From: a virus
Lineage: Duplodnaviria; Caudoviricetes
Strand: one strand, 5' to 3'
Virus record (IMG/VR): IMGVR_UViG_3300009873_000009
Coordinates: 1-64,000 of that record
DNA length: 64,000 nucleotides
Part shown: in pieces, positions 48,527 through 61,078 of the stretch
How positions within the stretch are numbered: position 1 is the first letter of the stretch
How the letters are laid out: each line of letters starts with the position of its first letter
Notes under the pieces: model-generated
Seen by the model: the letters and a program-made list of their open reading frames with translations, nothing else
Database searches by the model: none
Told to the model about the DNA's origin: nothing
Position numbers and translations under genes: made by a program

Positions 48527-48805
48527 CTACGGGATCGCGCCCTCCGGTATCTCCGGCAAGGGTGGGACTTCCCCCTCAACGATCTCCAGGTCTTCCAGGA
48601 CTCGATTTGCCAGCATGTAGAACGGCCAAGGCTCCTCGAGGAGCTGCTTCCCCTCCCACGGTTCCATGCCTGGCGCATGGAGACTTCCCACCAGGGACGC
48701 CTCGGCCTCGATCAGCAGAATAGCGGGCTGGTCCCCGGCCACTTCCCCCTTGTCCCAGGAGACCTCGAGTGGGACGCCCGCTCGTGTGCCACGTAGCCTG
48801 AACAT
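48527..48805 (-). CDS. Small acidic protein coupled to MuF (candidate immunity/partner)
   Basis: TAATG overlap with the MuF stop; 92 aa. Confidence 0.65.
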   Translation of the reverse strand: MFRLRGTRAGVPLEVSWDKGEVAGDQPAILLIEAEASLVGSLHAPGMEPWEGKQLLEEPWPFYMLANRVLEDLEIVEGEVPPLPEIPEGAIP

Positions 48806-51800
48806 TAGAGATCAAACCCTACAAGAATGCCAAGGGTGAAAGCAGCCTGTTCCTCATCAACCGCTTCGTCTAGTCCATAGGCTCCTTCCGCTCCCATGGA
48901 CAAGATCTCGAAGTGGTCATCTCGACCGTAGACGCGACCGGAGTAGTGGTTGAAGAACTCATCCTTGTAGCCAACCTCGGAGCTTCTGCCGTTGATGGCT
49001 GTTACCGTTTCACCTGGCTTGCGACGCTTCTGCAAGTAAGCAGACTCCACATGACCCAGCTGGGTTTTGGACTTGCGGCGATTGCGGCGGACGGACGTGT
49101 TCTCCACTACGTGCATGAGCTCATGAACCGCGGTGCCTGTCGTCCCTCGTTCCGAGCCCCCACTGATCCCAACTTCAATCAGGTGCGAGAAGACATCACC
49201 CTTCTGATAACCACGAGCCACTCCCTTCACTGTGATGCTTTTCTCGCTCGCGATCACCTTCAACCAATCCTTCGGCAGAAACTCCTTGCCCCGCTGCATT
49301 GCCTCGAAAGCCTTCTTATGTCCCTCGGAACCTTTAGCAGCTCGCATGTCAAGAGTCACACCACCGAAGTCTCGAACCTCCTTCAGCAGTCCTAGTACCT
49401 GCTCCGGCTTGGGCTTGTGGCGTTCCCGCAGCTTCCGAATCTCCTCTGCCGTAGCATTGTGCCGTTCACTAACCTCCTTGTATTTCCCCTCCCCATACTT
49501 CCGGTCCATCCAGTCCGCAAAGCCGAACGCCTTGTCCTTCGGCGCGGACTTGCGGTCTTCTGTCCACTCCCTAATGAACCTGTCCATCTCCGCTTGATTC
49601 GAGTCAGCTTCCCCTTGCAAAGCAGACAGCCGACGTTCCTTATCTGGATTGAAACCCTGACGATTCTTCAGCTCCTCTTGCACTACCCTGCCGACGCGAA
49701 CAGCGTCCTCCCACTTGGTTACACCCTTATCCCCAATCTCAGCCCACACCCGCTTCGAGAATTCCGTAGCCTCGCCAGTATGGGTGAGCCAGTCCGGCTT
49801 GCCTTCCACTCGAGGAGCGGGCGTCGTTGTCGTGATCGTAATGATGGGTCGCGGCGTTGTGGTAGGACGCGGGGCGATGAGCGGCTTGGGAGTGGTCGTT
49901 GTTCCTCCCGCAACCGGCCGTCCCGTGGTGGTCGTTGCGCCCTTGCTCGCTGTCAGGAACGCAGCCTGCTCCGGCGTCAGCTCGGCAGGAGCGCCACGCT
50001 TCTCCCATCCGCCTAGCTGTGCTCGGATAGTGGCATCGGAAGCTTTGAGGCCAGCAGCATCGAGCGCCGCCTTCGCCTCGCGGAAGGAGAACCCCTCCTT
50101 GCCCATCCAACGCACTACGGCTGTAGCGGCATGGTCGCTGAATTCCGGAGCAATAGGCTTCGGGTCTACCGGCGGAGCTGTAGTAAGTGGCCGCGGCGGA
50201 AGCGTCGTTGTCACGTACACAGGAACAAGCGCCGGAACCCGCTTCACGCCAGCAAGCTTGCGAGCTGCGTGACGGTGATTGCCGTCCAGAATACGCCCGT
50301 CCTTGTCCAAGCCGATAGGAGCATAGTCTCCTAACCGGCCCGAGCTGCCGAAGCTCTGGATATGCTTGGACAAGAAGCGGCTGGAATCGTTGATGTAGTC
50401 ATCGCCGAACTGTATCGGCTTGGCCTCCTCCAGGTCCACCATCCGCAACTCAAAGCCATCTGGAATCTGCTGTCCCGCTCGCGTGTAGAACGTAAGCAGA
50501 CCTTGGATTTCGTAATCAGCTAACGCAGCTACCTCAATGGAGACATCCTCCCCAATTTTTAGCAGCTTAGCATTGACCAGCTTGGGATTAACCCGAACTG
50601 CCCCTTCATGCTCCTTGAGCTTAGCCTGTAACTCGGCAAGCTCCTCCTTGCTCCAATTGTCCCTGTCCCGGATGTCCTCACGCGAGGGAAGGGTGAGGCG
50701 GCTTGGTGGCGGCTTGGGTGTGGGGGTTGTGGTGGTCGTTGTGGTCGTAAGCTGAGGGTCGACCGGGGGCTTCGGTGGGGGCTTGGGGGGAAGTACGTTG
50801 CCGGCCCTCACGCCTCGCAGATACTCCGCCTGTTCCAAGGTGAAGTCAGCCGGCGTTCCCCGTTTCTCCCATCCGCCTAGCTGCGCTCGGATGGTGGCGT
50901 CCGAGACGTCAACACCCAGGTCGGCGAGGACTCGCTTCGCATCCTTGAAGCTCCACCCCTCCTTGCCCATCCAGCGGATGGCCTCCGTCGGCTGCTTGTT
51001 GAACAAGCTCGGTGCGGGAGCGCCTACCGTAATCACATCTTGAGCAAAGGAGCGTTGCTGCGGTACGTCTAAGTCCGCGCCGGCCCACGCACTCTCCTCG
51101 TGCGGGTCTTCTGCTTTCGGTTTCTCGGCTCGCACGGAGGCAGACACAGCCTTGCCGATTTTAGCCTTGGTCCGCTTCTGGCCCTTTTCCTTGCGGTCGG
51201 CATCAGCAGGCACCCAAGCGCAACGGCAATTGGGATGGCGGGGGATGAGGCCTCGCGCCTCCTTCACCTTTAACACCACCCCTTCCATCGGTCCGCAGAG
51301 CGAGCAAACCTTGTCATCCCCTGCTGTAGACCACTCCGCCATCACGCCCACTTCCTCGACGCCAAGACGATCAAAAGCGTCTAGCTGTCCCTCCGCGTGA
51401 GCGTGAATCATCTCCGTTCGGGCGATGGTCATGGCCCGTTGCTTGGAGATGCCTATGGACTTGTGAATCTCCCCCGCCAGCTTCTTCGGATTCTGGCCGT
51501 GCGCAAGACCATCGGAGAGGATCTGGCTGAGGCGGGACGACATGCTAGCCGTCACCCCCTTCAGTCCCTCGAAGCTGCGAGTAGACAGCGCCTCGATACG
51601 CTTCGTGCCAGTCGGTGAGTCAAAAGCCTCGGTGAGAAACTGCTGCCGAGTCCCCGCATGGAAGTCGAGCTTCTCTGCCATAGCCTCCGGTCGAGCTTGG
51701 GCGAACGATCGCACGGTGCCATGCTTGTAGCTAGACCGAATATGCTCCGCGAGCCATGGCTCCTGCTTCTGGCCTGGTTTGACCTGGAGGATGCCGGCAT

Positions 51801-52038
51801 CCACCTGCTTCTTCAGCCACTCGCGATACTGGTCAATCTTCTTGTCGTCGGACAGAAACTTCCAACGCACGTTCAGCGCGAGGGGGTTCGCAGGCGCAAG
51901 ACCGAAGCAGTCCTCCTTATAGATCAGATCCCACGAGGCGTTCTCCAGAGCAGTCCAACGCCGCAGCATGTCGGCGAGGAACCGCTTCCGGATTGCGCCG
52001 GTTCTGGTGGGATCGGTCCTTAGGGGGTTCGCGGCCAA
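48805..52038 (-). CDS. MuF-family head morphogenesis protein with 2 HTH-like repeats, ParB-like domain and C-terminal HExxH zincin
   Basis: IARTE, EWSTAGDDKVCSLC, HPNCRC; DGRILDGNHR; AVHELMHVVE...EILSMG. TTG start after GAGGAG. Confidence 0.85.
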   Translation of the reverse strand: MAANPLRTDPTRTGAIRKRFLADMLRRWTALENASWDLIYKEDCFGLAPANPLALNVRWKFLSDDKKIDQYREWLKKQVDAGILQVKPGQKQEPWLAEHIRSSYKHGTVRSFAQARPEAMAEKLDFHAGTRQQFLTEAFDSPTGTKRIEALSTRSFEGLKGVTASMSSRLSQILSDGLAHGQNPKKLAGEIHKSIGISKQRAMTIARTEMIHAHAEGQLDAFDRLGVEEVGVMAEWSTAGDDKVCSLCGPMEGVVLKVKEARGLIPRHPNCRCAWVPADADRKEKGQKRTKAKIGKAVSASVRAEKPKAEDPHEESAWAGADLDVPQQRSFAQDVITVGAPAPSLFNKQPTEAIRWMGKEGWSFKDAKRVLADLGVDVSDATIRAQLGGWEKRGTPADFTLEQAEYLRGVRAGNVLPPKPPPKPPVDPQLTTTTTTTTPTPKPPPSRLTLPSREDIRDRDNWSKEELAELQAKLKEHEGAVRVNPKLVNAKLLKIGEDVSIEVAALADYEIQGLLTFYTRAGQQIPDGFELRMVDLEEAKPIQFGDDYINDSSRFLSKHIQSFGSSGRLGDYAPIGLDKDGRILDGNHRHAARKLAGVKRVPALVPVYVTTTLPPRPLTTAPPVDPKPIAPEFSDHAATAVVRWMGKEGFSFREAKAALDAAGLKASDATIRAQLGGWEKRGAPAELTPEQAAFLTASKGATTTTGRPVAGGTTTTPKPLIAPRPTTTPRPIITITTTTPAPRVEGKPDWLTHTGEATEFSKRVWAEIGDKGVTKWEDAVRVGRVVQEELKNRQGFNPDKERRLSALQGEADSNQAEMDRFIREWTEDRKSAPKDKAFGFADWMDRKYGEGKYKEVSERHNATAEEIRKLRERHKPKPEQVLGLLKEVRDFGGVTLDMRAAKGSEGHKKAFEAMQRGKEFLPKDWLKVIASEKSITVKGVARGYQKGDVFSHLIEVGISGGSERGTTGTAVHELMHVVENTSVRRNRRKSKTQLGHVESAYLQKRRKPGETVTAINGRSSEVGYKDEFFNHYSGRVYGRDDHFEILSMGAEGAYGLDEAVDEEQAAFTLGILVGFDL

Positions 52039-53077: not shown

Positions 53078-54754
53078 CTATCGCATCGGATTGGGTGGTC
53101 CATTCGTCGGTCCTCCTTGGCCAGGCGGTCCCTTCTGAGGTGGTCCGTTCGGAGGTCCGTTGGGAGGCGGCGGGGGAGGGATCGGTTTCCCGTCGGGCGT
53201 CATGCCGAGCTCAGCCATCGCAGCACGTTCCTCCTCCTGCTTGGCTTCGAGCTCGACCTGATGCTCCATCGCCGCTTCCATAATGGCCTCAGCCTCGTCC
53301 TCCTCGAGACCTAGGATGATGGTGAGATACTCCTTCGGCGGGATGAGCGTCTCGACATCCCCGCCCACGTACTTCGCAAGCGCCTCCGTCTTCTTGGCCG
53401 CAATGTCCACCTTGTCCTTCGGAGCTGGTGCGTTGAGGTCAGGCCAATGGACGTCGTACTGCTCCGGCTCCGGCAGCACTCCCGCGGCAATGAGGCGGTC
53501 CACGAACTCCCGAATGATCATCGGCGTCACGTAGCGCTGCTGACGGCGAATGATGCGGTTGTTCCACGTCTCCTGGTCTTGCGTGGACGCCAGATGAGCC
53601 GCCTCGCTCCCGAGGAAGATGCGATAGGGCGCTCCGATGGTGATGGCAATTGCCATGAGCTGGGCCTTGATCTGCGGCTCCGGGCTCACCACTTGCGGCG
53701 CGAGGGACTTGGCCTCGACTCCTTCAAGCGTCAGGTAGCGTTGCAGTCCCTCCGCCCACTTCTCGATCTCGCCTTTCAGCTCATCGCGGTCAATGGCGAT
53801 AGTGTTCTCCGGGTCGCCCTCGAAGCTGAAGCCAGGCAGAGCGCCACGCCAATACATCTCCGCCGAGCCGCCGAGCACCTTCTGCAAGTCGAGGAGGCGG
53901 TTCCAGACAGGGCGCTGCCGCGGAGTGCCGAACGTCTCACTCCCCTTGCGGTTGTCCGCGACATGGATGACGTGAGTCCAATGCACCTTAGTGGACTTGC
54001 TATCCGGCAGCGTCTGCGCCGAGGCCATCTCCGTGGGAGTGAACAGCGTGATATTGTAATACTTCGGCAGGCCATAGCGAGGATTCGTCACGTCCTGTTC
54101 GTACTCTGCGATCTTAGCCGCCTCCTCATCAAACGGCCGCAGATACAGCAGCTGCTTGGAAACTCCCTCCACCGAAGGCGCAACATCCAGCACGCCCTCC
54201 GGAGGGATTGTGGTCGTTGTAGGCGCTCCTGTGGTCGTAGTCCCAGGCGGTTCGGCGTTCTCGACCGGCTCTTTCTCTGGCTTCGGTGCCTTGCGCTTGA
54301 CGTTGGACGTCTTCGGGGGCTTGGTCTTCTGAGACAGACGTGCCTTGACCGCCTCCTCAACGCCGGGGACAGGCTCCTCAAGTGACGTGCCGAAGCCGAG
54401 CAGGAGCACGCCATAGTGACCAATGCCGGAGAGCTCGTCAATCCGTTGTAGATAGTGGAAGACGTTGTGGAGCTTCGCCAGGTCTTCCCAAGCCTGCTCG
54501 AATTCGGTCAGCTCCGGTTCTTCCTGCTCGAAGATTTCCGGTTCAACCACCCAGGTCTCCGTCGGGTAGATAGAGACAACACGCTCCGCAACGTCGCCAC
54601 GATCGTAGGACTTGCGATACTCCGCCGGTGTTATGGAATCGGGATAGTTACACTCGTCCCAGAGGTCACGGCCGGTCTCTCCCGTGATGCGTCTAAGCCA
54701 TGCGAGGCGTTGCGACGCAATGTTATTGAGGACCATTTCCAAAGTCTTGCTCAT
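53078..54754 (-). CDS. Portal protein (DUF1073-like)
   Basis: ELSGIGHYGVLLL, NPRYGLPKYY, VHWTHVIH, PYRIFLG; lies after terL. It has a Thr/Pro insertion and a Pro-rich tail. Confidence 0.85.
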   Translation of the reverse strand: MSKTLEMVLNNIASQRLAWLRRITGETGRDLWDECNYPDSITPAEYRKSYDRGDVAERVVSIYPTETWVVEPEIFEQEEPELTEFEQAWEDLAKLHNVFHYLQRIDELSGIGHYGVLLLGFGTSLEEPVPGVEEAVKARLSQKTKPPKTSNVKRKAPKPEKEPVENAEPPGTTTTGAPTTTTIPPEGVLDVAPSVEGVSKQLLYLRPFDEEAAKIAEYEQDVTNPRYGLPKYYNITLFTPTEMASAQTLPDSKSTKVHWTHVIHVADNRKGSETFGTPRQRPVWNRLLDLQKVLGGSAEMYWRGALPGFSFEGDPENTIAIDRDELKGEIEKWAEGLQRYLTLEGVEAKSLAPQVVSPEPQIKAQLMAIAITIGAPYRIFLGSEAAHLASTQDQETWNNRIIRRQQRYVTPMIIREFVDRLIAAGVLPEPEQYDVHWPDLNAPAPKDKVDIAAKKTEALAKYVGGDVETLIPPKEYLTIILGLEEDEAEAIMEAAMEHQVELEAKQEEERAAMAELGMTPDGKPIPPPPPPNGPPNGPPQKGPPGQGGPTNGPPNPMR

Positions 54755-55061: not shown

Positions 55062-56516
55062 CTATGGTAGTAATTTCCCGGCTCGGCCCTTACCTGCGAT
55101 GACATTAAACGCTCCCGAGCTAGCGTCCACTTGGTCCTTGTATTTGCCGCGGTCGAAGTACCGGAGCTCGTCTATGTAAGCCTGGTTCCAATCAGCTTCG
55201 ACCAGGATCACATTCTCGCCATTGACTTGGGAGGCGAACGGTTCAGCACGGAGGCGCTTGTCGCCGTCCCCCTTCCCCACTTTATGGATGAGCACTCGGA
55301 AGCCGGCTAGGCGCTTCACCGTGTCACGTGCCGAGTCCTTACCGCCCGAACCACCCTCCTGTTCAACGGCAATAATGACCTTCTTCCCATCTGCCCTAGC
55401 AGTGCGGAGAATAACCTGCTCCCGTTCATACGACTCCCATTGCCCCCGTTCTACATGGAGAACCCAATACGTGGGGAGCTTGTTTCTTATCTGGACTCCA
55501 ATCTTCACCCCTACCGTATAGGCTCCCCCATCCAATGTCCCAGCCTTATCCCAATACCGGATGATCCGTGCGAATGAACTATCCGGTGGACGGTCCTTCT
55601 CTATTCTGAGGCGTTGCACTTTGAACATGCCTCCGCCTAGCGGCACAGGCGACTGCCCGAACTGTCCCGCATAGCTATATTCCCCGTCCGCCTTATGATT
55701 CTTGAGCACCTCTCTCGGGAGTCGTATCGGGTCTAGGAGTCCGTTCTGGTACTTCTTGGCAAGACCAGCAGGACGCACCTCGTATCCCTCATCACAGGTA
55801 GCAGGCAGGCAAATATGGCGAACCGGCATTCCCTTCTTCTTGGCGAGAAGGCGGCCGGCGGGATCATCCTCGTGGAGTCTCTGCATCACCATCGCCATTG
55901 CCGTGATGCGCTTATCGACCTTGCGAGTAGGCCAGACCTCCGACATCCAGCTATTGGCGGCTTTAAGGTCGGCCTCGGATAGAGCCTGCTGCGGATCGAG
56001 CGGGTCGTCTGTGATCAGAAAATGCCCATGATGCCCCGTCGGGCTTTTACCCCCTACGGTCGCGACCAGTCTCATCCCTCCTGCCGTGTTCTGGAAATGC
56101 CCCTTCGTGTCCTGGTCGTCCCGGAGCTCTACCTCGGGGAAACAGGCTCGATATTTTTCCGAGCGAATGACGTCACGAGACTTGCGGGACAGGTCGAGCC
56201 CGAGAGTGCCCGTGTGACTTGCGTTGAGGAGGCGGGCAGTCGGCATCCTGGTCCAGACCCACGGGCAGAACATCACCGACGCAACAGTGGACTTGGTGGT
56301 GCCTGGCGGGATGTTGACGAGGAGCTCGTGCTCGGCAGGTTTGTTGCGGAAGACCAACTCCGCCTGATACTGGAGCTCGTCGCACATGAGCTCGATGTGG
56401 AAGTTGAAGATGGGAGTCTCGGGAATAATGACATCCCAGAATTCCCGTATGAATTCGTAGAAGCTCTCGCGCGTAATAGACGCGACGAGGTCGTGCTCGG
56501 CGAACCCTCGCTTCAT
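55062..56516 (-). CDS. terL: Terminase large subunit
   Basis: NIPPGTTKST (Walker A), ITDDPLD (Walker B), YWDKA, EQEGG, DQVDA. Confidence 0.93.
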   Translation of the reverse strand: MKRGFAEHDLVASITRESFYEFIREFWDVIIPETPIFNFHIELMCDELQYQAELVFRNKPAEHELLVNIPPGTTKSTVASVMFCPWVWTRMPTARLLNASHTGTLGLDLSRKSRDVIRSEKYRACFPEVELRDDQDTKGHFQNTAGGMRLVATVGGKSPTGHHGHFLITDDPLDPQQALSEADLKAANSWMSEVWPTRKVDKRITAMAMVMQRLHEDDPAGRLLAKKKGMPVRHICLPATCDEGYEVRPAGLAKKYQNGLLDPIRLPREVLKNHKADGEYSYAGQFGQSPVPLGGGMFKVQRLRIEKDRPPDSSFARIIRYWDKAGTLDGGAYTVGVKIGVQIRNKLPTYWVLHVERGQWESYEREQVILRTARADGKKVIIAVEQEGGSGGKDSARDTVKRLAGFRVLIHKVGKGDGDKRLRAEPFASQVNGENVILVEADWNQAYIDELRYFDRGKYKDQVDASSGAFNVIAGKGRAGKLLP

Positions 56517-57256
56517 TGGGCGGCCTCCACCGTGAGCGCCCGGCGTTCGTTACGGAGCGCGTCCAGGATTTGCTTCCGCACCTCGAGCGGTAACTGTAGG
56601 TCGTCAACCGCCACGACAGACAGGTTGTGTTGGACAGCTCCAGTGTGCTCGTGCTCGATCTTCTCGCCGTAGCCCCGGTCGCGGTTCAGGGTCTTATTGG
56701 CGAAGATCGTTGCCGGGGAGTCCCCGCGGGCGACCAGTCCCACCAAGGCGCTTTCAAAGAAGTCCTTCTTGGCTTGGTGAAGCTCGTCAATGAGGGCGGC
56801 GAAGTCCGGATCAAACTTGGTCCAGTAGCGTACGATGTCGCGGCTCAGATTGAGGGCGCGACGAGCCGCCGACTGCGAGAAGTTGTAGTGGCTGAGCGCG
56901 TACAGAAACAGGTGCTGCCGAGTGTTCTTGCCTTCGTTGGCCAGCAGCGCCTCGATTCTCTGGACGGCGTTCGGTTCCTCCTCGCACTCCTGGAGCAAAT
57001 CCCACAGCGCCTGAAGGCGGGGCGGCAGGCGGTTGTAGACGTACTCCCGAAAGTCCTCGGTGTGCACGCACTTGGACGCGCCCTTGCGAGCCTGCTTCAG
57101 CGCATAGCGGAACCCTGGCCGCTTCCGTTTCCAGAGCTGGATCGTGGCCGGACTCACGCCGAGCGCAGCGGCGATCTTCTCGTCACTCAATCCCTCGCGC
57201 GCCAGTTCGTAGGCATCGATGGCAAACTCCGGTTTCCAGAACGTCTTCTTCTTCAT
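56513..57256 (-). CDS. terS: Terminase small subunit with N-terminal HTH
   Basis: GLSDEKIAAALGVSPATIQLWKR; ATIFANK...RGY; ATGA overlap with terL. Confidence 0.8.
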   Translation of the reverse strand: MKKKTFWKPEFAIDAYELAREGLSDEKIAAALGVSPATIQLWKRKRPGFRYALKQARKGASKCVHTEDFREYVYNRLPPRLQALWDLLQECEEEPNAVQRIEALLANEGKNTRQHLFLYALSHYNFSQSAARRALNLSRDIVRYWTKFDPDFAALIDELHQAKKDFFESALVGLVARGDSPATIFANKTLNRDRGYGEKIEHEHTGAVQHNLSVVAVDDLQLPLEVRKQILDALRNERRALTVEAAQ

Positions 57257-57615
57257 TGGTCCCCCGCCTGGGATGAGGCGTCAGGGGCGTACGATACTCG
57301 TGAAAAGTTCTGATAACACGCCTACAAAGCTAACATCGGTCCCACTACTGCGCTCGGATAAGTCGCCGTTGATGGGTTGCCCTGGCCTCGCCTGCGCTCC
57401 CTGGCGGGGCGGTTGGAACAGGGCGGGGGACAGGGGGTCGGGGCGGCCGAGCGCGCGCTAGGCGAGCGCCTACGCGCTCCAGGAGGGGGTTTCCGAGGGG
57501 GCCGGCGGGCCGGATATAGGGAGAGGGGAGAGGGGGCGGCGGGGGGGTTGATGGACAGCTGTTATACCCCCATTGTGGGAAATCCGGCAGAAAATCAAAA
57601 TATTTTTCCCGCACC

Positions 57616-57744
57616 TAACCTGATACCGGATAAGGGTTTCCGGCTCGTCCCCCACCGGGGGGCACGAATCATTATCCGGTTAATAGCGTATCCGGAAAAC
57701 CGCCCGGAAAGGCGCTGTAACCTGATACCGGATAAGGGTTTCCG
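57616..57744. repeat. 27-bp direct repeat pair with inverted core between them
   Basis: TAACCTGATACCGGATAAGGGTTTCCG at 57616-57642 and 57718-57744; inverted TTATCCGGT at 57672-57680. Confidence 0.92.
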
Positions 57745-58005
57745 TCAAAAACCCCCCTTCTGGACCGACTCCGTATAGGGTATACGGCGTCAACAAACAC
57801 CTGCGAGGGCAAACGAGTAGGGCAAACCGGGGCCGAGTAAGGGCAACCCCTAGTCGCCACCAGATCTTTTACAACCTAGAGAGTCCACGGGCAAGGCGCT
57901 GCGGCGCGTTGCAGACCAGAACACTGCCTGGCCGTTTCCGCGACGACCCTTCGGTCGCCACCCCCACAACAATCCAATGAGCAGGGGGACGCGAACGCAT
58001 ACAAC

Positions 58006-58061
58006 AACGCGAAACGCCGGTTCGCCGGCGTCTACGGGTTTGACCCGTACTGATGAGCGTT
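58006..58061 (+). ncRNA. Type II hammerhead ribozyme HH1
   Basis: AACGC-GAAAC-GCCGG ttcg CCGGC-GTC(cut after 58032)-TACGGG tttga CCCGTA-CTGATGA-GCGTT. Confidence 0.92.
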
Positions 58062-58089
58062 CAACCAAGGAGCGTGCCGAGCCCGCTAA

Positions 58090-58177
58090 GGACGAAACGC
58101 TCGGATCAACATACCGCGGCACCAGCCCGGGAGTTACGTTCCGAGCGTCCAGGGGTTACGCCCCTGCTGATGAGTCC
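58090..58177 (+). ncRNA. Type II hammerhead ribozyme HH2 (34-nt stem III loop)
   Basis: GGAC-GAAAC-GCTCGGA...TCCGAGC-GTC(58149)-CAGGGG ttacg CCCCTG-CTGATGA-GTCC. Confidence 0.9.
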
Positions 58178-58198
58178 ATCCAACTAAAGGAGTTTCCC

Positions 58199-58417
58199 AT
58201 GAACCAGAAAATGAAACGCTACGCCATCACCTACCGCATCCCCACCAAAAGCACGCTTGGCAAACGCAAGTTTGTCGAGAAGCAGGGGTTCAGTGAGGAA
58301 CACGTCAAGATTGAGTTCCTCGCGCTGCACCCGAACGCCATAGTGGAGTGCGTTCTTCCCATCCCAGGTCAAGAGCAGCCGGCCGAGGATTGCGGTAGAG
58401 GTCGTCCCCGCCAATGA
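58199..58417 (+). CDS. Early hypothetical protein
   Basis: AAGGAG RBS directly after HH2; MNQKMKRY... Confidence 0.75.
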   Translation: MNQKMKRYAITYRIPTKSTLGKRKFVEKQGFSEEHVKIEFLALHPNAIVECVLPIPGQEQPAEDCGRGRPRQ

Positions 58418-58425
58418 GATGCTAA

Positions 58426-58477
58426 GGACGAAACGCCCTCGCGGGCGTCCGGTTGTAACGCAACCGCTGATGAGTCC
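58426..58477 (+). ncRNA. Type II hammerhead ribozyme HH3
   Basis: GGAC-GAAAC-GCCC tcgc GGGC-GTC(58449)-CGGTTG taacg CAACCG-CTGATGA-GTCC. Confidence 0.95.
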
Positions 58478-58500
58478 ATCCCAACCTTACGAGGTTCCAA

Positions 58501-58974
58501 ATGCTTACACTTTACAAAGGCCGTCTGTCCTGGAACGGATACCGCAACGCATGCCCGCCGGACATCTACGACCTGGCGCTGCGTCCCACCCCGAACAACC
58601 TGCGAAGGCTGTATTCCCTCGGCTATCTGCCGCAGGGAGAGTTGGAGACCTGTCTTACCATTCTCGGTTCTGTTACCCCTAGCGAAGAAGGAGATGAGAC
58701 CATGTCGAAGTCCTCCACGAAGAAGGCCGCCAAGTCCGAGTCCACCCCCCGCGTTACGCTCTTCGAGCAGAGCGTCACCGCAGTCCTCCGGTTCATGGGG
58801 CTGAACGACTGGGTGTTCGATGACGCCCGCCTCGCGCTCAATACGCTGGGCGCGAGCGAGATCAGCGACACGACCATCCGCATTCAACTGCGGGCGGGCA
58901 AGAAGGGCGAGCGCGGCGAGCCGGCCAAGTTGACCAAGTCGCAGATCGCGTCACTCAAGAAGGCCGCGAAGTAG
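58501..58974 (+). CDS. Early protein; C-terminal 90 aa is an HTH-like domain homologous to the MuF repeats
   Basis: GAGG RBS; an internal GAAGGAG precedes in-frame ATG 58702; AVLRFMG...ISDTTIRIQL. Confidence 0.78.
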   Translation: MLTLYKGRLSWNGYRNACPPDIYDLALRPTPNNLRRLYSLGYLPQGELETCLTILGSVTPSEEGDETMSKSSTKKAAKSESTPRVTLFEQSVTAVLRFMGLNDWVFDDARLALNTLGASEISDTTIRIQLRAGKKGERGEPAKLTKSQIASLKKAAK

Positions 58975-59029
58975 GACGAAACGCCAGGGTGCCCTGGCGT
59001 CGGACGGTTGTGCCGTCCCTGATGAGTCC
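58974..59029 (+). ncRNA. Type II hammerhead ribozyme HH4
   Basis: GGAC-GAAAC-GCCAGGG tg CCCTGGC-GTC(59001)-GGACGG ttgtg CCGTCC-CTGATGA-GTCC. Confidence 0.95.
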
Positions 59030-59050
59030 CAAGTCACAAGGAGCAAACCC

Positions 59051-59500
59051 ATGCCTGCCAAACGCCGTCACCTTCTCTGCATCCGGGAGAACCTCCGTCC
59101 ATTCTTCGAACGCCGTCTGAACGTCCTCGGAATCGACCACTCGTTCGACAACGACCACAGCCGCGAGAACGGGATCTACACCGTTCGGTGCTCGGCCTCC
59201 GACGCGCAGTACGTCACCGCCTGGCTGGAAGGGGTGAGCGCCGCGACCTCCTGGGAGGTTCCCTTCAAGACCCGCTTCACCCTCCCTCGCGTGATCGAGT
59301 GCACCTTCGCCCACGTTTGCGACAACGAACTGATCGAGGACGAAGAGAATCTTGAGGACTTCGAGAAGGTTCTCCGGACCGCCAAGTCGATCAGCGAGAT
59401 TGTAGACCAGCTGTACGCCTACACCGGCATCGAACACGGTGACGGGTGGCAGTTCGTCCTCGACGCGCTCGCGGAGGGGGTCGGTGAGACAATCCACTAG
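59051..59500 (+). CDS. Early hypothetical protein
   Basis: AAGGAG RBS after HH4; 149 aa. Confidence 0.8.
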   Translation: MPAKRRHLLCIRENLRPFFERRLNVLGIDHSFDNDHSRENGIYTVRCSASDAQYVTAWLEGVSAATSWEVPFKTRFTLPRVIECTFAHVCDNELIEDEENLEDFEKVLRTAKSISEIVDQLYAYTGIEHGDGWQFVLDALAEGVGETIH

Positions 59501-59551
59501 GACGAAACGCCCGCGAGGGCGTAGTGCCGTTTTGCGGCACCTGATGAGTCC
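59500..59551 (+). ncRNA. Type II hammerhead ribozyme HH5 (GUA cleavage triplet)
   Basis: GGAC-GAAAC-GCCC gcga GGGC-GTA(59523)-GTGCCG ttttg CGGCAC-CTGATGA-GTCC. Confidence 0.93.
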
Positions 59552-59570
59552 CTTTTTCGGAGTTTCCAAA

Positions 59571-59792
59571 ATGTACGTCATCGTCACCAGCGTCGGTCTC
59601 CAACTGTTCCTTAGCAAGCGTGAGGACGGAGGACGCGAAGAACTGGCCGGCTTGGTGCCTCGCATCGAGCAGGCATGGCACTTCCGGACCTACCTAGACG
59701 CGAGCGAGATGATCCGAAAGCGCTACGCCGCGTACCGCGAGCACGGCAAGGCGTGCACCCCCTTAGAGGTGCGCGAGGTCGTCGGCGAGTAA
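59571..59792 (+). CDS. Early hypothetical protein
   Basis: GGAG RBS after HH5; MYVIVTSVG... Confidence 0.7.
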   Translation: MYVIVTSVGLQLFLSKREDGGREELAGLVPRIEQAWHFRTYLDASEMIRKRYAAYREHGKACTPLEVREVVGE

Positions 59793-59823
59793 AACCCGTA
59801 AAACAAGGGGTTTTTAACCCCGC

Positions 59824-59853
59824 TTGTGCTACAAATGTAGGATTCGTTAGACT
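59824..59853 (+). promoter_or_regulatory. Putative sigma70-like promoter TTGTGC-N18-TAGACT
   Basis: Near-identical copy at 63620; preceded by a GGGG..CCCC hairpin. Confidence 0.6.
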
Positions 59854-59878
59854 GGCAACCCCTCACCGAGAGCACCCA

Positions 59879-61078
59879 ATGAAAACCACGAAGCAAGAAT
59901 TCCTCGACGCGCTCAAGGAGCACACCGGCTATTGGGTCGGCACGACCAAGCTGCTCGACGCGCTCGACCTACCGAACAGCGCCCGGCCGCAAACGCTCAT
60001 GATCCTCCACTCGCTCACCGAGCAGGGAGTTCTGGAACGGCATGGCAAGGCGAAGTTCGCATGGCGGTGGGTTCCCAACACCAAGACCGCCGCGGACATC
60101 AACTGGAAGCACAACCCCGCCAGCGTCAAGACCGGCGGAGGCGAGGGGAGCGGGACCACCACGGTCAACAATGAGCGGGTCGACCAGCTGAACGACCTCG
60201 TCGCCAACCTCGAGACGACCGTCGAGTCGCTGACCAAGCGGCTCGAAGAGGTCGCCGCGACGAGCGTCCGCGAGATCATCCTGAAGAACTACGAAGGGCA
60301 GCGCACGACACGGCTCAAGGACGTCACCCTCCCCAAGCAGTTCGACCAGACGCTGTCCCTGGCCAACTGCCGGCGCAACATCCTCCTCGTGGGTCCGGCC
60401 GGTTGCGGCAAGACCTACCTGGCGCGCCTCATCGCCAAGTCCCTGAAGTTCTCCTTCGCGTCCCTGTCCTGCACGGCAGGCATGAGCGAGTCCCACCTGC
60501 TGGGCCGCGCGACGCCGGACATCCAGAAGGGAACCACGGTGTATCAACGGTCCGCGTTCCTGGAATGCTTCGAGGAGGGAGGGGTCTTCCTGCTCGATGA
60601 GTTGGACGCCGCGGACTCCAATACCCTCCTGGTGATCAACGACGCTTTGTCCTCCGGTCGCTGCTCCGTTCCCAATCGTCCGGACAACCCGGTCGCCGTC
60701 CGGCATGAGGATTTCGTTCTCATCGCAACGGCCAACACGTTCGGGCGCGGCGCGAGCCGGGTCTACGTCGGTCGTAACCAGTTAGACGAAGCGACGCTCG
60801 ATCGGTTCCGCATCGGGACCATCGAATGCGACTACGACCGCGCCGTCGAAGCGAGCGTTTGCCCGGACGAGACCATCCGGGTGCGGTTGCAGACCATCCG
60901 GCGGAGTATTGAGGACGCGTCCCTCCGACGCATCCTGTCAACCCGGTTCCTCGCGGACGCCTACGTCATGCATAAGTCCGCGGGCTGGACCATCGAGACC
61001 ATCCTCAATACCTACTTCCAAGGCTGGTCTCCCGAGGAGCGTGCCAAGGTTGACATCCCCTACGCCAATTCCCACTAA
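59879..61078 (+). CDS. MoxR/CbbQ-like AAA+ ATPase with N-terminal winged-helix-like and coiled-coil segments
   Basis: GPAGCGKT, FLLDELDAA, ATANTFG, GRNQLDEATLDRF. Confidence 0.88.
   Translation: MKTTKQEFLDALKEHTGYWVGTTKLLDALDLPNSARPQTLMILHSLTEQGVLERHGKAKFAWRWVPNTKTAADINWKHNPASVKTGGGEGSGTTTVNNERVDQLNDLVANLETTVESLTKRLEEVAATSVREIILKNYEGQRTTRLKDVTLPKQFDQTLSLANCRRNILLVGPAGCGKTYLARLIAKSLKFSFASLSCTAGMSESHLLGRATPDIQKGTTVYQRSAFLECFEEGGVFLLDELDAADSNTLLVINDALSSGRCSVPNRPDNPVAVRHEDFVLIATANTFGRGASRVYVGRNQLDEATLDRFRIGTIECDYDRAVEASVCPDETIRVRLQTIRRSIEDASLRRILSTRFLADAYVMHKSAGWTIETILNTYFQGWSPEERAKVDIPYANSH

What the first reader, a model, noticed from the sequence alone, without database searches (positions are those of the whole stretch)
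58006..59551. Early operon punctuated by five type II hammerhead ribozymes
Seen: five intergenic elements have the full hammerhead core in type II order: stem II strand, GAAAC, stem III, GUC or GUA, stem I, CUGAUGA, stem II strand. Stem sequences differ but pair perfectly (covariation). All have a 6-bp stem I with U as the first loop base and an A just 5' of stem II, which fits the known minimal A-U tertiary contact. HH2-HH5 each sit 20-25 nt upstream of a start codon, and two overlap the previous stop codon. Known: phage hammerheads have been reported, and cleavage leaves 5'-OH and 2',3'-cyclic phosphate ends. Inference: the early transcript cuts itself into monocistronic, 5'-OH, hairpin-capped mRNAs independent of host RNases, acting as a natural insulator array.
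Basis: partly seen in the sequence, partly recalled or inferred. Interest (0 to 1): 0.88.

Follow-up and report, generated by a model that had tools for sequence, protein, structure and literature searches.

The report
Five hammerhead ribozymes between phage genes
Five intact self-cutting RNA motifs (type II hammerhead ribozymes) sit between four small unknown genes of an uncultured sludge phage and probably cut one long transcript into single-gene messages; this layout has been known in phages since 2011, so it is real but ordinary.

Summary
Five complete type II hammerheads lie on the + strand at 58006-58061, 58090-58177, 58426-58477, 58974-59029 and 59500-59551. There are no others in the 72.7-kb phage genome, and 200 dinucleotide shuffles gave none. 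A covariance model built only from hammerheads of other phage contigs finds all five at 54-69 bits; the next hit scores 10 bits. Rfam RF02276 stays below its gathering score (best 36.4 against 37).

Four of the five sit 19-23 nt before a start codon, and two share bases with the preceding stop codon. The four flanked genes have no known family.

Perreault et al. 2011 described clustered hammerheads flanking single phage genes and proposed the same processing. This scan has already noted such arrays in at least 114 other genomes, and I found arrays of up to 12 in other IMG/VR contigs.

Cleavage, operon structure and "early" timing are all inferred. The proposed U-A tertiary contact fits class-wide conservation; the usual type II pseudoknot is not supported.

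Verdict: new member of a known kind.

The parts
57257..58005 (.). Divergent intergenic region between the small terminase gene (- strand) and the hammerhead array. It is the presumed promoter and leader region and contains repeats.
   Evidence: ORF list and PHROG/Pfam hits. Perfect 27-nt direct repeat at 57616 and 57718, and three AGGGCAAAC copies at 57806-57849. No sigma-70-like site was found.
58006..58061 (+). HH1, a type II hammerhead with stem II ACGC/GCGU (plus an A-U pair). Cleavage is after C58032. No gene follows it before HH2.
   Evidence: Rfam 36.4 bits. R1 53.9 bits.
58033..58149 (+). 117-nt unit that double cleavage by HH1 and HH2 would release. It holds an AAGGAG motif but no usable ORF.
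   Evidence: None of 66 adjacent hammerhead pairs in other phage loci is closer than 239 nt.
58090..58177 (+). HH2, a type II hammerhead with a large insertion of about 38-39 nt in stem III. Cleavage is after C58149.
   Evidence: R1 62.7 bits.
58199..58417 (+). ORF1, 72 aa, with AAGGAG 6 nt upstream. Function unknown.
58426..58477 (+). HH3, a type II hammerhead. Cleavage is after C58449.
   Evidence: R1 69.2 bits.
58501..58974 (+). ORF2, 157 aa. Its C-terminal domain (residues 83-153) resembles two repeats in the MuF-like head protein. An in-frame internal ATG at 58702 follows GAAGGAG.
58974..59029 (+). HH4, a type II hammerhead. Its first G is the last base of ORF2's TAG stop codon. Cleavage is after C59001.
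   Evidence: R1 63.1 bits.
59051..59500 (+). ORF3, 149 aa, acidic, with no relative found.
59500..59551 (+). HH5, a type II hammerhead with a GUA cleavage triplet. Its first G is the last base of ORF3's TAG stop codon. Cleavage is after A59523.
   Evidence: R1 57.5 bits. A at H17 occurs in 10 of 165 related hammerheads.
59571..59792 (+). ORF4, 73 aa, function unknown. It is the last gene of the punctuated block.
59807..59821 (.). GC hairpin (GGGGTT..AACCCC) after ORF4, a possible end of the transcription unit. The scan called it a terminator only on the - strand.

Best explanation
These are five functional type II hammerhead ribozymes embedded in the transcript of a four-gene block. The block lies at the head of the phage's replication and DNA-modification gene strand.

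As RNA polymerase passes each motif, it folds and cuts itself after H17. The weak 4-bp stem II then lets the two halves separate.

In the type II layout both new ends are hairpins:
- The upstream message ends just past its stop codon in the stem III hairpin, followed by one base carrying a 2',3'-cyclic phosphate.
- The downstream message starts with a 5'-OH directly on the stem I hairpin, about 35-40 nt before its ribosome-binding site.

The result would be single-gene mRNAs whose translation and decay do not depend on their neighbours. HH1 and HH2 together would also remove the primary 5' leader.

Shown here: the motifs, their intact cores, their placement relative to stop and start codons, and that they belong to a widespread phage class.
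Inferred: transcription as one unit, cleavage in the cell, the effect on stability, and early timing.
For: Motifs:
- All invariant core positions are intact in all five.
- The five hits compare with 0 in 200 shuffled genomes.
- Each element's own minimum-energy fold is the hammerhead junction.
- The independent model R1 scores them at 54-69 bits.
- Across 87 class members, 14 of 16 pairs change on both sides, but pairing was partly imposed by how I selected the sequences.

Placement:
- All five are on the coding strand and in intergenic gaps.
- They lie 19-23 nt before an SD-preceded ATG, and two share the stop codon.
- The same rule holds across 165 hammerheads from other phage contigs. An SD plus start codon lies within 60 nt in 145 of them, and a stop codon begins 2 or 3 nt before stem II, abutting or overlapping it, at 88 counted positions.

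Precedent:
- Clustered prophage hammerheads cleave in vitro, and one triple arrangement cleaves in vivo in E. coli; processing into single-gene mRNAs was proposed (PMC3088659).
- Three type II hammerheads near phage-like genes cleave in vivo in Desulfovibrio vulgaris (PMC8782182).

Context:
- The packaging and head genes are on the - strand.
- DNA polymerase A, RecA-like, UDG-like and radical-SAM genes are on the + strand that the array heads.
Against: - No cleavage data exist for this phage.
- Rfam's own threshold is not reached.
- With 40 nt of native flank on each side, the minimum-energy fold keeps stems I and III but replaces the 4-bp stem II with other pairings in all five. In HH3, UCGUCC at 58402-58407 pairs with GGACGA. 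In HH1, an upstream GAACGC at 57993-57998 captures the 3' strand of stem II.
- No promoter was predicted, and no + strand terminator, so the transcription unit is assumed.
- The host is unknown; the nearest cultured terminase is 38% identical. Whether a 5'-OH stabilises or destabilises an mRNA depends on the host's RNases, so the direction of any stability effect is open.
Confidence: 0.72

Rival explanations
1. Gene-cassette boundary. Each hammerhead travels with the gene behind it as a portable unit (ribozyme, ribosome-binding site, small accessory gene). The ribozyme's main value would be to make a newly acquired gene's expression independent of where it lands. This is compatible with the best explanation, but it puts the selective reason in gene mobility rather than operon design.
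For: - The flanked genes are small and unrelated, with no known family here.
- Eight of 10 genes sampled from other arrays also have no Pfam family.
- The median downstream ORF is 100 aa.
- Relatives of ORF2's C-terminal domain, of the neighbouring ATPase and of the terminase occur in other phages without any hammerhead.
- The tight hammerhead-SD-start spacing is class-wide.
- The literature notes that these ribozymes flank small non-conserved ORFs (PMC6155905).
Against: I found no case of the same gene with and without its hammerhead in close relatives, and no repeats or recombination scars at unit borders. HH1 has no gene behind it.
Confidence: 0.2
2. Expression limiter or timer. Cleavage mainly shortens the life of these messages, or is regulated through competing folds or by ribosomes terminating on the 5' strand of stem II. 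The genes would then be expressed briefly or conditionally.
For: - Alternative pairings out-compete stem II in native context.
- The stop codons of ORF2 and ORF3 overlap the ribozyme's 5' strand, so a terminating ribosome would hinder folding.
- Perreault et al. raise regulated cleavage for phage hammerheads.
Against: Both new ends are closed by stable hairpins, which is what one expects of protected rather than exposed ends (inference). There is no ligand-binding or sensor domain, and the competing pairings are not shown to be conserved.
Confidence: 0.12
3. Circular or spliced RNAs. The units between cleavage sites (117, 300, 552 and 522 nt, all multiples of three) would be ligated into circles.
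For: All four intervals are multiples of 3; by chance this has probability 1 in 81. Hammerhead products carry the ends that an RtcB-type ligase joins (established knowledge).
Against: - In 66 adjacent hammerhead pairs from other phage arrays the intervals fall 19/22/25 over the three residues modulo 3, so there is no enrichment.
- Every unit's ORF ends in a stop codon.
- The phage genome has no RtcB match.
- Perreault et al. looked for circular or spliced products and found none.
Confidence: 0.03
4. Inactive relics or DNA-level palindromes. The motifs would no longer cut and would persist as hairpins or protein-binding sites.
For: Rfam scores are sub-threshold, and stem II is only 4 bp.
Against: All invariant core bases are intact in all five copies while the stems differ freely. 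That is the pattern of selection on the RNA fold, not on a DNA sequence. The independent model gives very strong matches.
Confidence: 0.04

Closest known systems
Clustered hammerhead ribozymes flanking single genes in prophages (Perreault et al. 2011, PLoS Comput Biol, PMC3088659)
   Same: Several hammerheads lie close together on the coding strand of phage DNA. They flank single small genes of varying identity, and the proposed role is processing of long transcripts into single-gene mRNAs. Tested examples cleave in vitro and in E. coli.
   Different: There are five here in 1.55 kb, against the two or three per cluster that were tested. All five are type II and of one sub-architecture. Two are fused to stop codons, and there is a gene-less HH1-HH2 doublet at the head of the array.
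Type II hammerhead ribozyme family, Rfam RF02276
   Same: Same core and topology, and the same conserved A 5' of stem II; the Rfam consensus begins A-gG-CGAAAC.
   Different: Scores fall below the gathering cut-off. Stem II is 4 bp. The loop I / 3'-tail pseudoknot typical of most type II members is not supported: complementarity averages 3.49 against 3.47 in shuffled pairings.
Minimal hammerheads with a single A-U trans-Hoogsteen tertiary contact (O'Rourke, Estell & Scott 2015, as described in PMC9217987)
   Same: U lies 7 nt after the cleavage site, and A sits next to the 5' strand of a 4-bp stem II. These are the two positions of the published contact.
   Different: In that work the A is the last base of a closed GUGA loop; here stem II is open and the A is a flanking base. 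The original paper was not available to me, and the contact cannot be tested by covariation because both bases are nearly invariant.
Type II hammerheads near phage-like genes in Desulfovibrio vulgaris, shown active by cyPhyRNA-seq (PMC8782182)
   Same: Type II motifs beside hypothetical and phage genes, two of them about 310 nt apart. Cleavage was shown both in vivo and in vitro.
   Different: Those are single motifs or a pair in a bacterial chromosome, not a five-member array in a phage genome.
Ribozyme insulators of synthetic biology (RiboJ-type parts; from my own knowledge, not checked here)
   Same: A self-cleaving ribozyme placed before an RBS removes the upstream RNA context.
   Different: Those are engineered, single and derived from a type III ribozyme. 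The elements here are natural, type II and arrayed.

Membership tests
Hammerhead ribozyme, type II (Rfam RF02276, clan CL00010) | Invariant core: C3 U4 G5 A6 N7 G8 A9 and G12 A13 A14 | tested here: met
   CUGAUGA and GAAA are present in all five and invariant in the alignment.
Hammerhead ribozyme, type II (Rfam RF02276, clan CL00010) | A15.1-U16.1 pair followed by a non-G cleavage nucleotide (H17) | tested here: met
   GUC in HH1-HH4 and GUA in HH5. H17 is at 58032, 58149, 58449, 59001 and 59523.
Hammerhead ribozyme, type II (Rfam RF02276, clan CL00010) | Three helices meeting at the core, with standard pairs next to it | tested here: met
   Stem I is 6-7 bp, stem II 4-5 bp and stem III 6-9 bp with no mismatches. 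The minimum-energy fold of each element alone is this junction. Across 87 class members, 14 of 16 pairs change on both sides.
Hammerhead ribozyme, type II (Rfam RF02276, clan CL00010) | Type II permutation: stems I and III closed by loops, with the RNA entering and leaving through stem II | tested here: met
   The order is stem II 5' strand, GAAA, stem III hairpin, H17, stem I hairpin, CUGAUGA, stem II 3' strand.
Hammerhead ribozyme, type II (Rfam RF02276, clan CL00010) | Score at or above Rfam's gathering cut-off (37 bits) | tested here: not met
   There are 0 hits at gathering score. The best score is 36.4 bits and HH4 is unlisted. This is a curatorial threshold of one model, not a structural feature. 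A class-specific model gives 54-69 bits.
Hammerhead ribozyme, type II (Rfam RF02276, clan CL00010) | Loop I / 3'-tail pseudoknot (typical of most type II members, not obligatory) | tested here: not met
   The window has best runs of 3-5 bp, but in 144 class members the complementarity equals that of shuffled loop-tail pairings.
Hammerhead ribozyme, type II (Rfam RF02276, clan CL00010) | Site-specific self-cleavage giving 5'-OH and 2',3'-cyclic phosphate ends | not testable with these tools
   This needs a transcription and cleavage assay or end-specific RNA-seq.
Clustered phage hammerheads (Perreault et al. 2011) | Several hammerheads close together, on the gene strand, flanking single genes or short gene blocks in phage DNA | tested here: met
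   There are five within 1,546 nt on the + strand, with one gene between successive members from HH2 onwards. The phage identity comes from terminase, portal and MuF hits.
Minimal A-U tertiary contact hammerheads (O'Rourke et al. 2015) | U 7 nt 3' of the cleavage site, and A adjoining the 5' strand of a 4-bp stem II | tested here: met
   Both bases are present in 5 of 5 here. In the class, U is present in 107 of 108 and A in 155 of 165. The positions are as quoted in PMC9217987.
Minimal A-U tertiary contact hammerheads (O'Rourke et al. 2015) | The two bases actually form a trans-Hoogsteen pair that speeds cleavage | not testable with these tools
   Both columns are nearly invariant, so covariation cannot speak. 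This needs mutagenesis or a solved structure.

The most novel reading that the evidence does not exclude
These elements belong to a distinct, pseudoknot-free sub-class of type II hammerheads. Its features are a 4-bp stem II, a 6-bp stem I with a 5-nt U-first loop, a flanking A, and fusion to the upstream stop codon and the downstream ribosome-binding site. On this reading the sub-class is a dedicated phage system for punctuating accessory-gene operons. The type II layout would be selected because it alone leaves a hairpin on both new RNA ends. The gene-less HH1-HH2 doublet would release a 117-nt RNA with its own role.
Probability: 0.25. Interest if true: 0.5.

Novelty: new member of a known kind. 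Interest (0 to 1): 0.3.

Why it matters
The biological purpose of bacterial and phage hammerheads is still an open question (PMC6765202). A compact array with five intact ribozymes, defined stop and start junctions and four short genes is a convenient test case for asking whether self-cleavage changes the stability or translation of each message. By itself this locus adds no new principle. It adds one more instance, and a sketch of a recurrent sub-architecture, to a phenomenon described in 2011 and seen many times in this scan.

Tried and rejected
- RNA evidence. One sample-matched run labelled metatranscriptomic (X2, "RNA?" by guess, kept only as contigs, depth 2-7) covers 57791-58011, 58219-58500 and 58609-58825. 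No listed holder is on record as RNA. One contig runs across the HH3 cleavage site, but the run may contain DNA and contigs cannot show RNA ends. I draw no conclusion about expression or cleavage from it.
- Pseudoknot. HH4 (UUGUG/CACAA) and HH5 (UUUUG/CAAAA) each show 5-bp loop I/tail matches, but the class control shows no enrichment, so I dropped the idea.
- Conservation of the array in relatives:
  - A 43%-identical ATPase locus has no hammerhead.
  - Two loci with ORF2's C-terminal domain have none.
  - ORF3 has no relative at all.
  - Rhizobium phage RHph_Y52 (terminase 37% identical) has no match to model R1.
  No close relative of this phage was available.
- Function of the flanked genes. 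Pfam, PHROGs and the protein atlas gave nothing usable.
- RtcB ligase is not found in the phage genome. There are no tRNAs in the window.
- Promoter scan: no sigma-70-like site in 57000-60200.
- The O'Rourke 2015 paper could not be read; I used a secondary description.
Full report
WHAT IS THERE. The window is bases 1-64000 of a 72,732-nt IMG/VR virus record that is estimated to be 94% complete. The source is an activated-sludge sample. It is a tailed phage. The small terminase (56513-57256), large terminase (55062-56516), portal (53078-54754) and a MuF-like head protein (48805-52038) lie on the - strand. DNA polymerase A, a RecA-like protein, a UDG-family protein and a radical-SAM enzyme lie on the + strand. 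The finding sits where the two blocks diverge, just after a 750-nt intergenic region (57257-58005).

THE FIVE ELEMENTS. Reading the sequence and running my own descriptor search give five complete type II hammerheads on the + strand:
- HH1 at 58006-58061
- HH2 at 58090-58177
- HH3 at 58426-58477
- HH4 at 58974-59029
- HH5 at 59500-59551

Each has, in order, the 5' strand of stem II, GAAA, a closed stem III, U16.1 and H17 (C in four, A in HH5), a closed stem I, CUGAUGA, and the 3' strand of stem II.

The whole genome holds no other copy, even with relaxed rules, and 200 dinucleotide-preserving shuffles gave none under the strict rules. Each element alone folds into the three-way junction as its minimum-energy structure, with z-scores of -2.2 to -4.3.

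Rfam's Hammerhead_II model does not reach its gathering score. At relaxed thresholds it finds four of the five, at 36.4, 27.9, 20.8 and 19.6 bits against a cut-off of 37, and it misses HH4. The shortfall comes from the model, which expects a 2-bp stem II and a conserved 3' tail. To get an independent test I built model R1 from 79 hammerheads of other phage contigs only. It recovers all five at 54-69 bits (E 1e-13 to 5e-18), and the next best hit in the window scores 10 bits.

The stems differ between copies while pairing perfectly. In an 87-member alignment, 14 of 16 pairs show changes on both sides. My descriptor required pairing, so that percentage is partly imposed. The less circular control is that 116 of the 120 loci fetched by a core-only pattern contain at least one complete fold.

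PLACEMENT.
- HH2-HH5 end 21, 23, 21 and 19 nt before ATG codons that are preceded by AAGGAG-like sites.
- The stop codons of ORF2 (TAG 58972-58974) and ORF3 (TAG 59498-59500) share their last base with stem II. Their A is the conserved base 5' of stem II.
- The four genes (72, 157, 149 and 73 aa) have no Pfam or PHROG family.
- ORF3 has no relative among 5.8 billion proteins by the word-based search.
- HH1 is followed by only 28 nt and then HH2, so there is no gene between them.

IT IS ONE OF A COMMON CLASS. Many of these carry arrays. With relaxed rules I counted 12 hammerheads in 5.6 kb (L117), 8 in L113, and 7 in each of L093, L100 and L125.

Across 165 distinct hammerheads from these loci:
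- The stem I hairpin is 17 nt long in 108.
- The first loop base is U in 107 of those 108.
- The base 5' of stem II is A in 155 of 165.
- H17 is C in 155 and A in 10.
- An SD-preceded start codon lies within 60 nt downstream in 145, mostly 18-30 nt away.
- A stop codon begins 2 or 3 nt before stem II, so that it abuts or overlaps the ribozyme, at 88 counted positions.
- The downstream ORFs have a median length of 100 aa.
- Eight of 10 sampled ORFs have no Pfam family.

The window's array is therefore a typical member of this class.

TERTIARY CONTACT. Most type II hammerheads are said to use a pseudoknot between loop I and the 3' tail (PMC3088659). HH4 and HH5 do have 5-bp matches of this kind. 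In 144 class members, however, loop-tail complementarity is no higher than in shuffled pairings (3.49 against 3.47), so I rejected the pseudoknot.

The nearly invariant U is the seventh base after the cleavage site, and the nearly invariant A adjoins the 5' strand of a 4-bp stem II. These are the positions of the trans-Hoogsteen pair of O'Rourke et al. 2015, as described in PMC9217987. The A also heads the Rfam consensus. This is conservation, not proof. The two columns do not vary, so covariation cannot test them.

HOW IT PROBABLY WORKS. Cleavage after H17 would leave the upstream message ending, about 27-55 nt past its stop codon, in the stem III hairpin plus one base with a 2',3'-cyclic phosphate. 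The downstream message would begin with a 5'-OH on the first base of the stem I hairpin. Only the 4-bp stem II would hold the halves together.

Of the three hammerhead permutations, only type II leaves a closed hairpin on both new ends. That may be why it is the form found in these arrays; this is my inference. Every upstream ORF keeps its stop codon, so cleavage creates no non-stop messages. These points follow from the sequence. That the hairpins and the 5'-OH protect against host nucleases is inference from general knowledge of bacterial mRNA decay, and it depends on the unknown host; the nearest cultured terminase is 38% identical.

CAVEATS.
- With 40 nt of native flank on each side, predicted minimum-energy folds keep stems I and III but lose the proper stem II in all five. 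In HH3, UCGUCC at 58402-58407 pairs with GGACGA. In HH1, an upstream GAACGC at 57993-57998 captures the 3' strand.
- No promoter, and no + strand terminator, was predicted.
- "Early" rests only on gene order.
- The one possibly-RNA data set is uninformative.

WHAT IS KNOWN.
- Perreault et al. [quoted passage not shown] They proposed that long phage transcripts are processed into single-gene mRNAs. They showed cleavage of three tandem arrangements in vitro and of one in E. coli, and they looked for circular or spliced products without finding any.
- De la Pena et al. 2017 note that such motifs flank small non-conserved ORFs and are persistently linked to phages.
- Weinberg et al. 2019 state that the purpose remains undefined.
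- Type II hammerheads near phage-like genes cleave in vivo in D. vulgaris.
- This scan has 130 earlier notes of such arrays in at least 114 genomes, and follow-ups reached the same verdict.

RIVALS.
- The circular-RNA idea was raised in another note on this same stretch. Its arithmetic holds: the intervals are 117, 300, 552 and 522 nt. But 66 intervals in other arrays show no preference for multiples of three (19/22/25), each unit carries a stop codon, and the phage has no RtcB.
- A cassette-boundary role is compatible with the main reading and has some support. Relatives of the flanking genes occur without hammerheads.
- A limiter or regulated-cleavage role cannot be excluded.
- Inactive relics are unlikely, because the cores are intact while the stems are free to vary.

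VERDICT. This is a new member of a known kind. The only local oddity is the gene-less HH1-HH2 doublet: none of 66 adjacent pairs in other phage loci is closer than 239 nt.

Noticed in passing
window 58006-58177: HH1 and HH2 form a back-to-back doublet with a 28-nt spacer, cleavage sites 117 nt apart, and no gene between them. In 66 adjacent hammerhead pairs from other phage loci the closest are 239 nt apart. It may be a remnant of a lost gene, a double cut to remove the leader, or a released small RNA.
   Followed up: partly
window 57616-57642 and 57718-57744; 57806-57849: A perfect 27-nt direct repeat occurs twice, 102 nt apart, with an inverted partial copy at 57667-57680. Three AGGGCAAAC repeats lie closer to HH1. 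All are in the divergent intergenic region upstream of HH1. They are unique in the window and are candidate operator or promoter elements.
   Followed up: partly
window 58501-58974 and 48805-52038 (-): Residues 83-153 of ORF2 are 41-44% identical to two repeats (residues 341-408 and 635-695) of the MuF-like head protein (E 2e-11 and 8e-10). Relatives in two other viral contigs match only this half. An in-frame ATG at 58702 follows a strong GAAGGAG, so a shorter product is possible.
   Followed up: partly
loci L007-L126 (other IMG/VR contigs): In 27 of 165 hammerheads from other phages the tail right after stem II reads AUCAG (within the first 9 nt in 32). This is complementary to CUGAU of the catalytic core, so after cleavage the core could refold into a hairpin (visible). 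None of the five in the window has it.
   Followed up: no
L117:1651-7239; L113:3035-6289: Much larger arrays of the same hammerhead sub-type occur in other viral contigs: 12 copies in 5.6 kb in L117 and 8 in 3.3 kb in L113. Published clusters that I could find have two or three.
   Followed up: partly
window 58033-59523: The four intervals between cleavage sites (117, 300, 552 and 522 nt) are all multiples of three. Other arrays show no such bias, so this is probably chance (1 in 81).
   Followed up: yes
window 58402-58407 and 57993-57998: Sequences just upstream of HH3 (UCGUCC, inside ORF1) and of HH1 (GAACGC) can pair with a stem II strand of the ribozyme and win in minimum-energy folds with native flanks. 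These could be competing folds that link cleavage to upstream translation, or they could be chance.
   Followed up: no
window 57525-57547: The DNA-run contigs of the source sample break at a G-rich run (57538-57550) inside the intergenic region, with loose ends of poly-G. This is probably an assembly or sequencing difficulty rather than a genome end.
   Followed up: no
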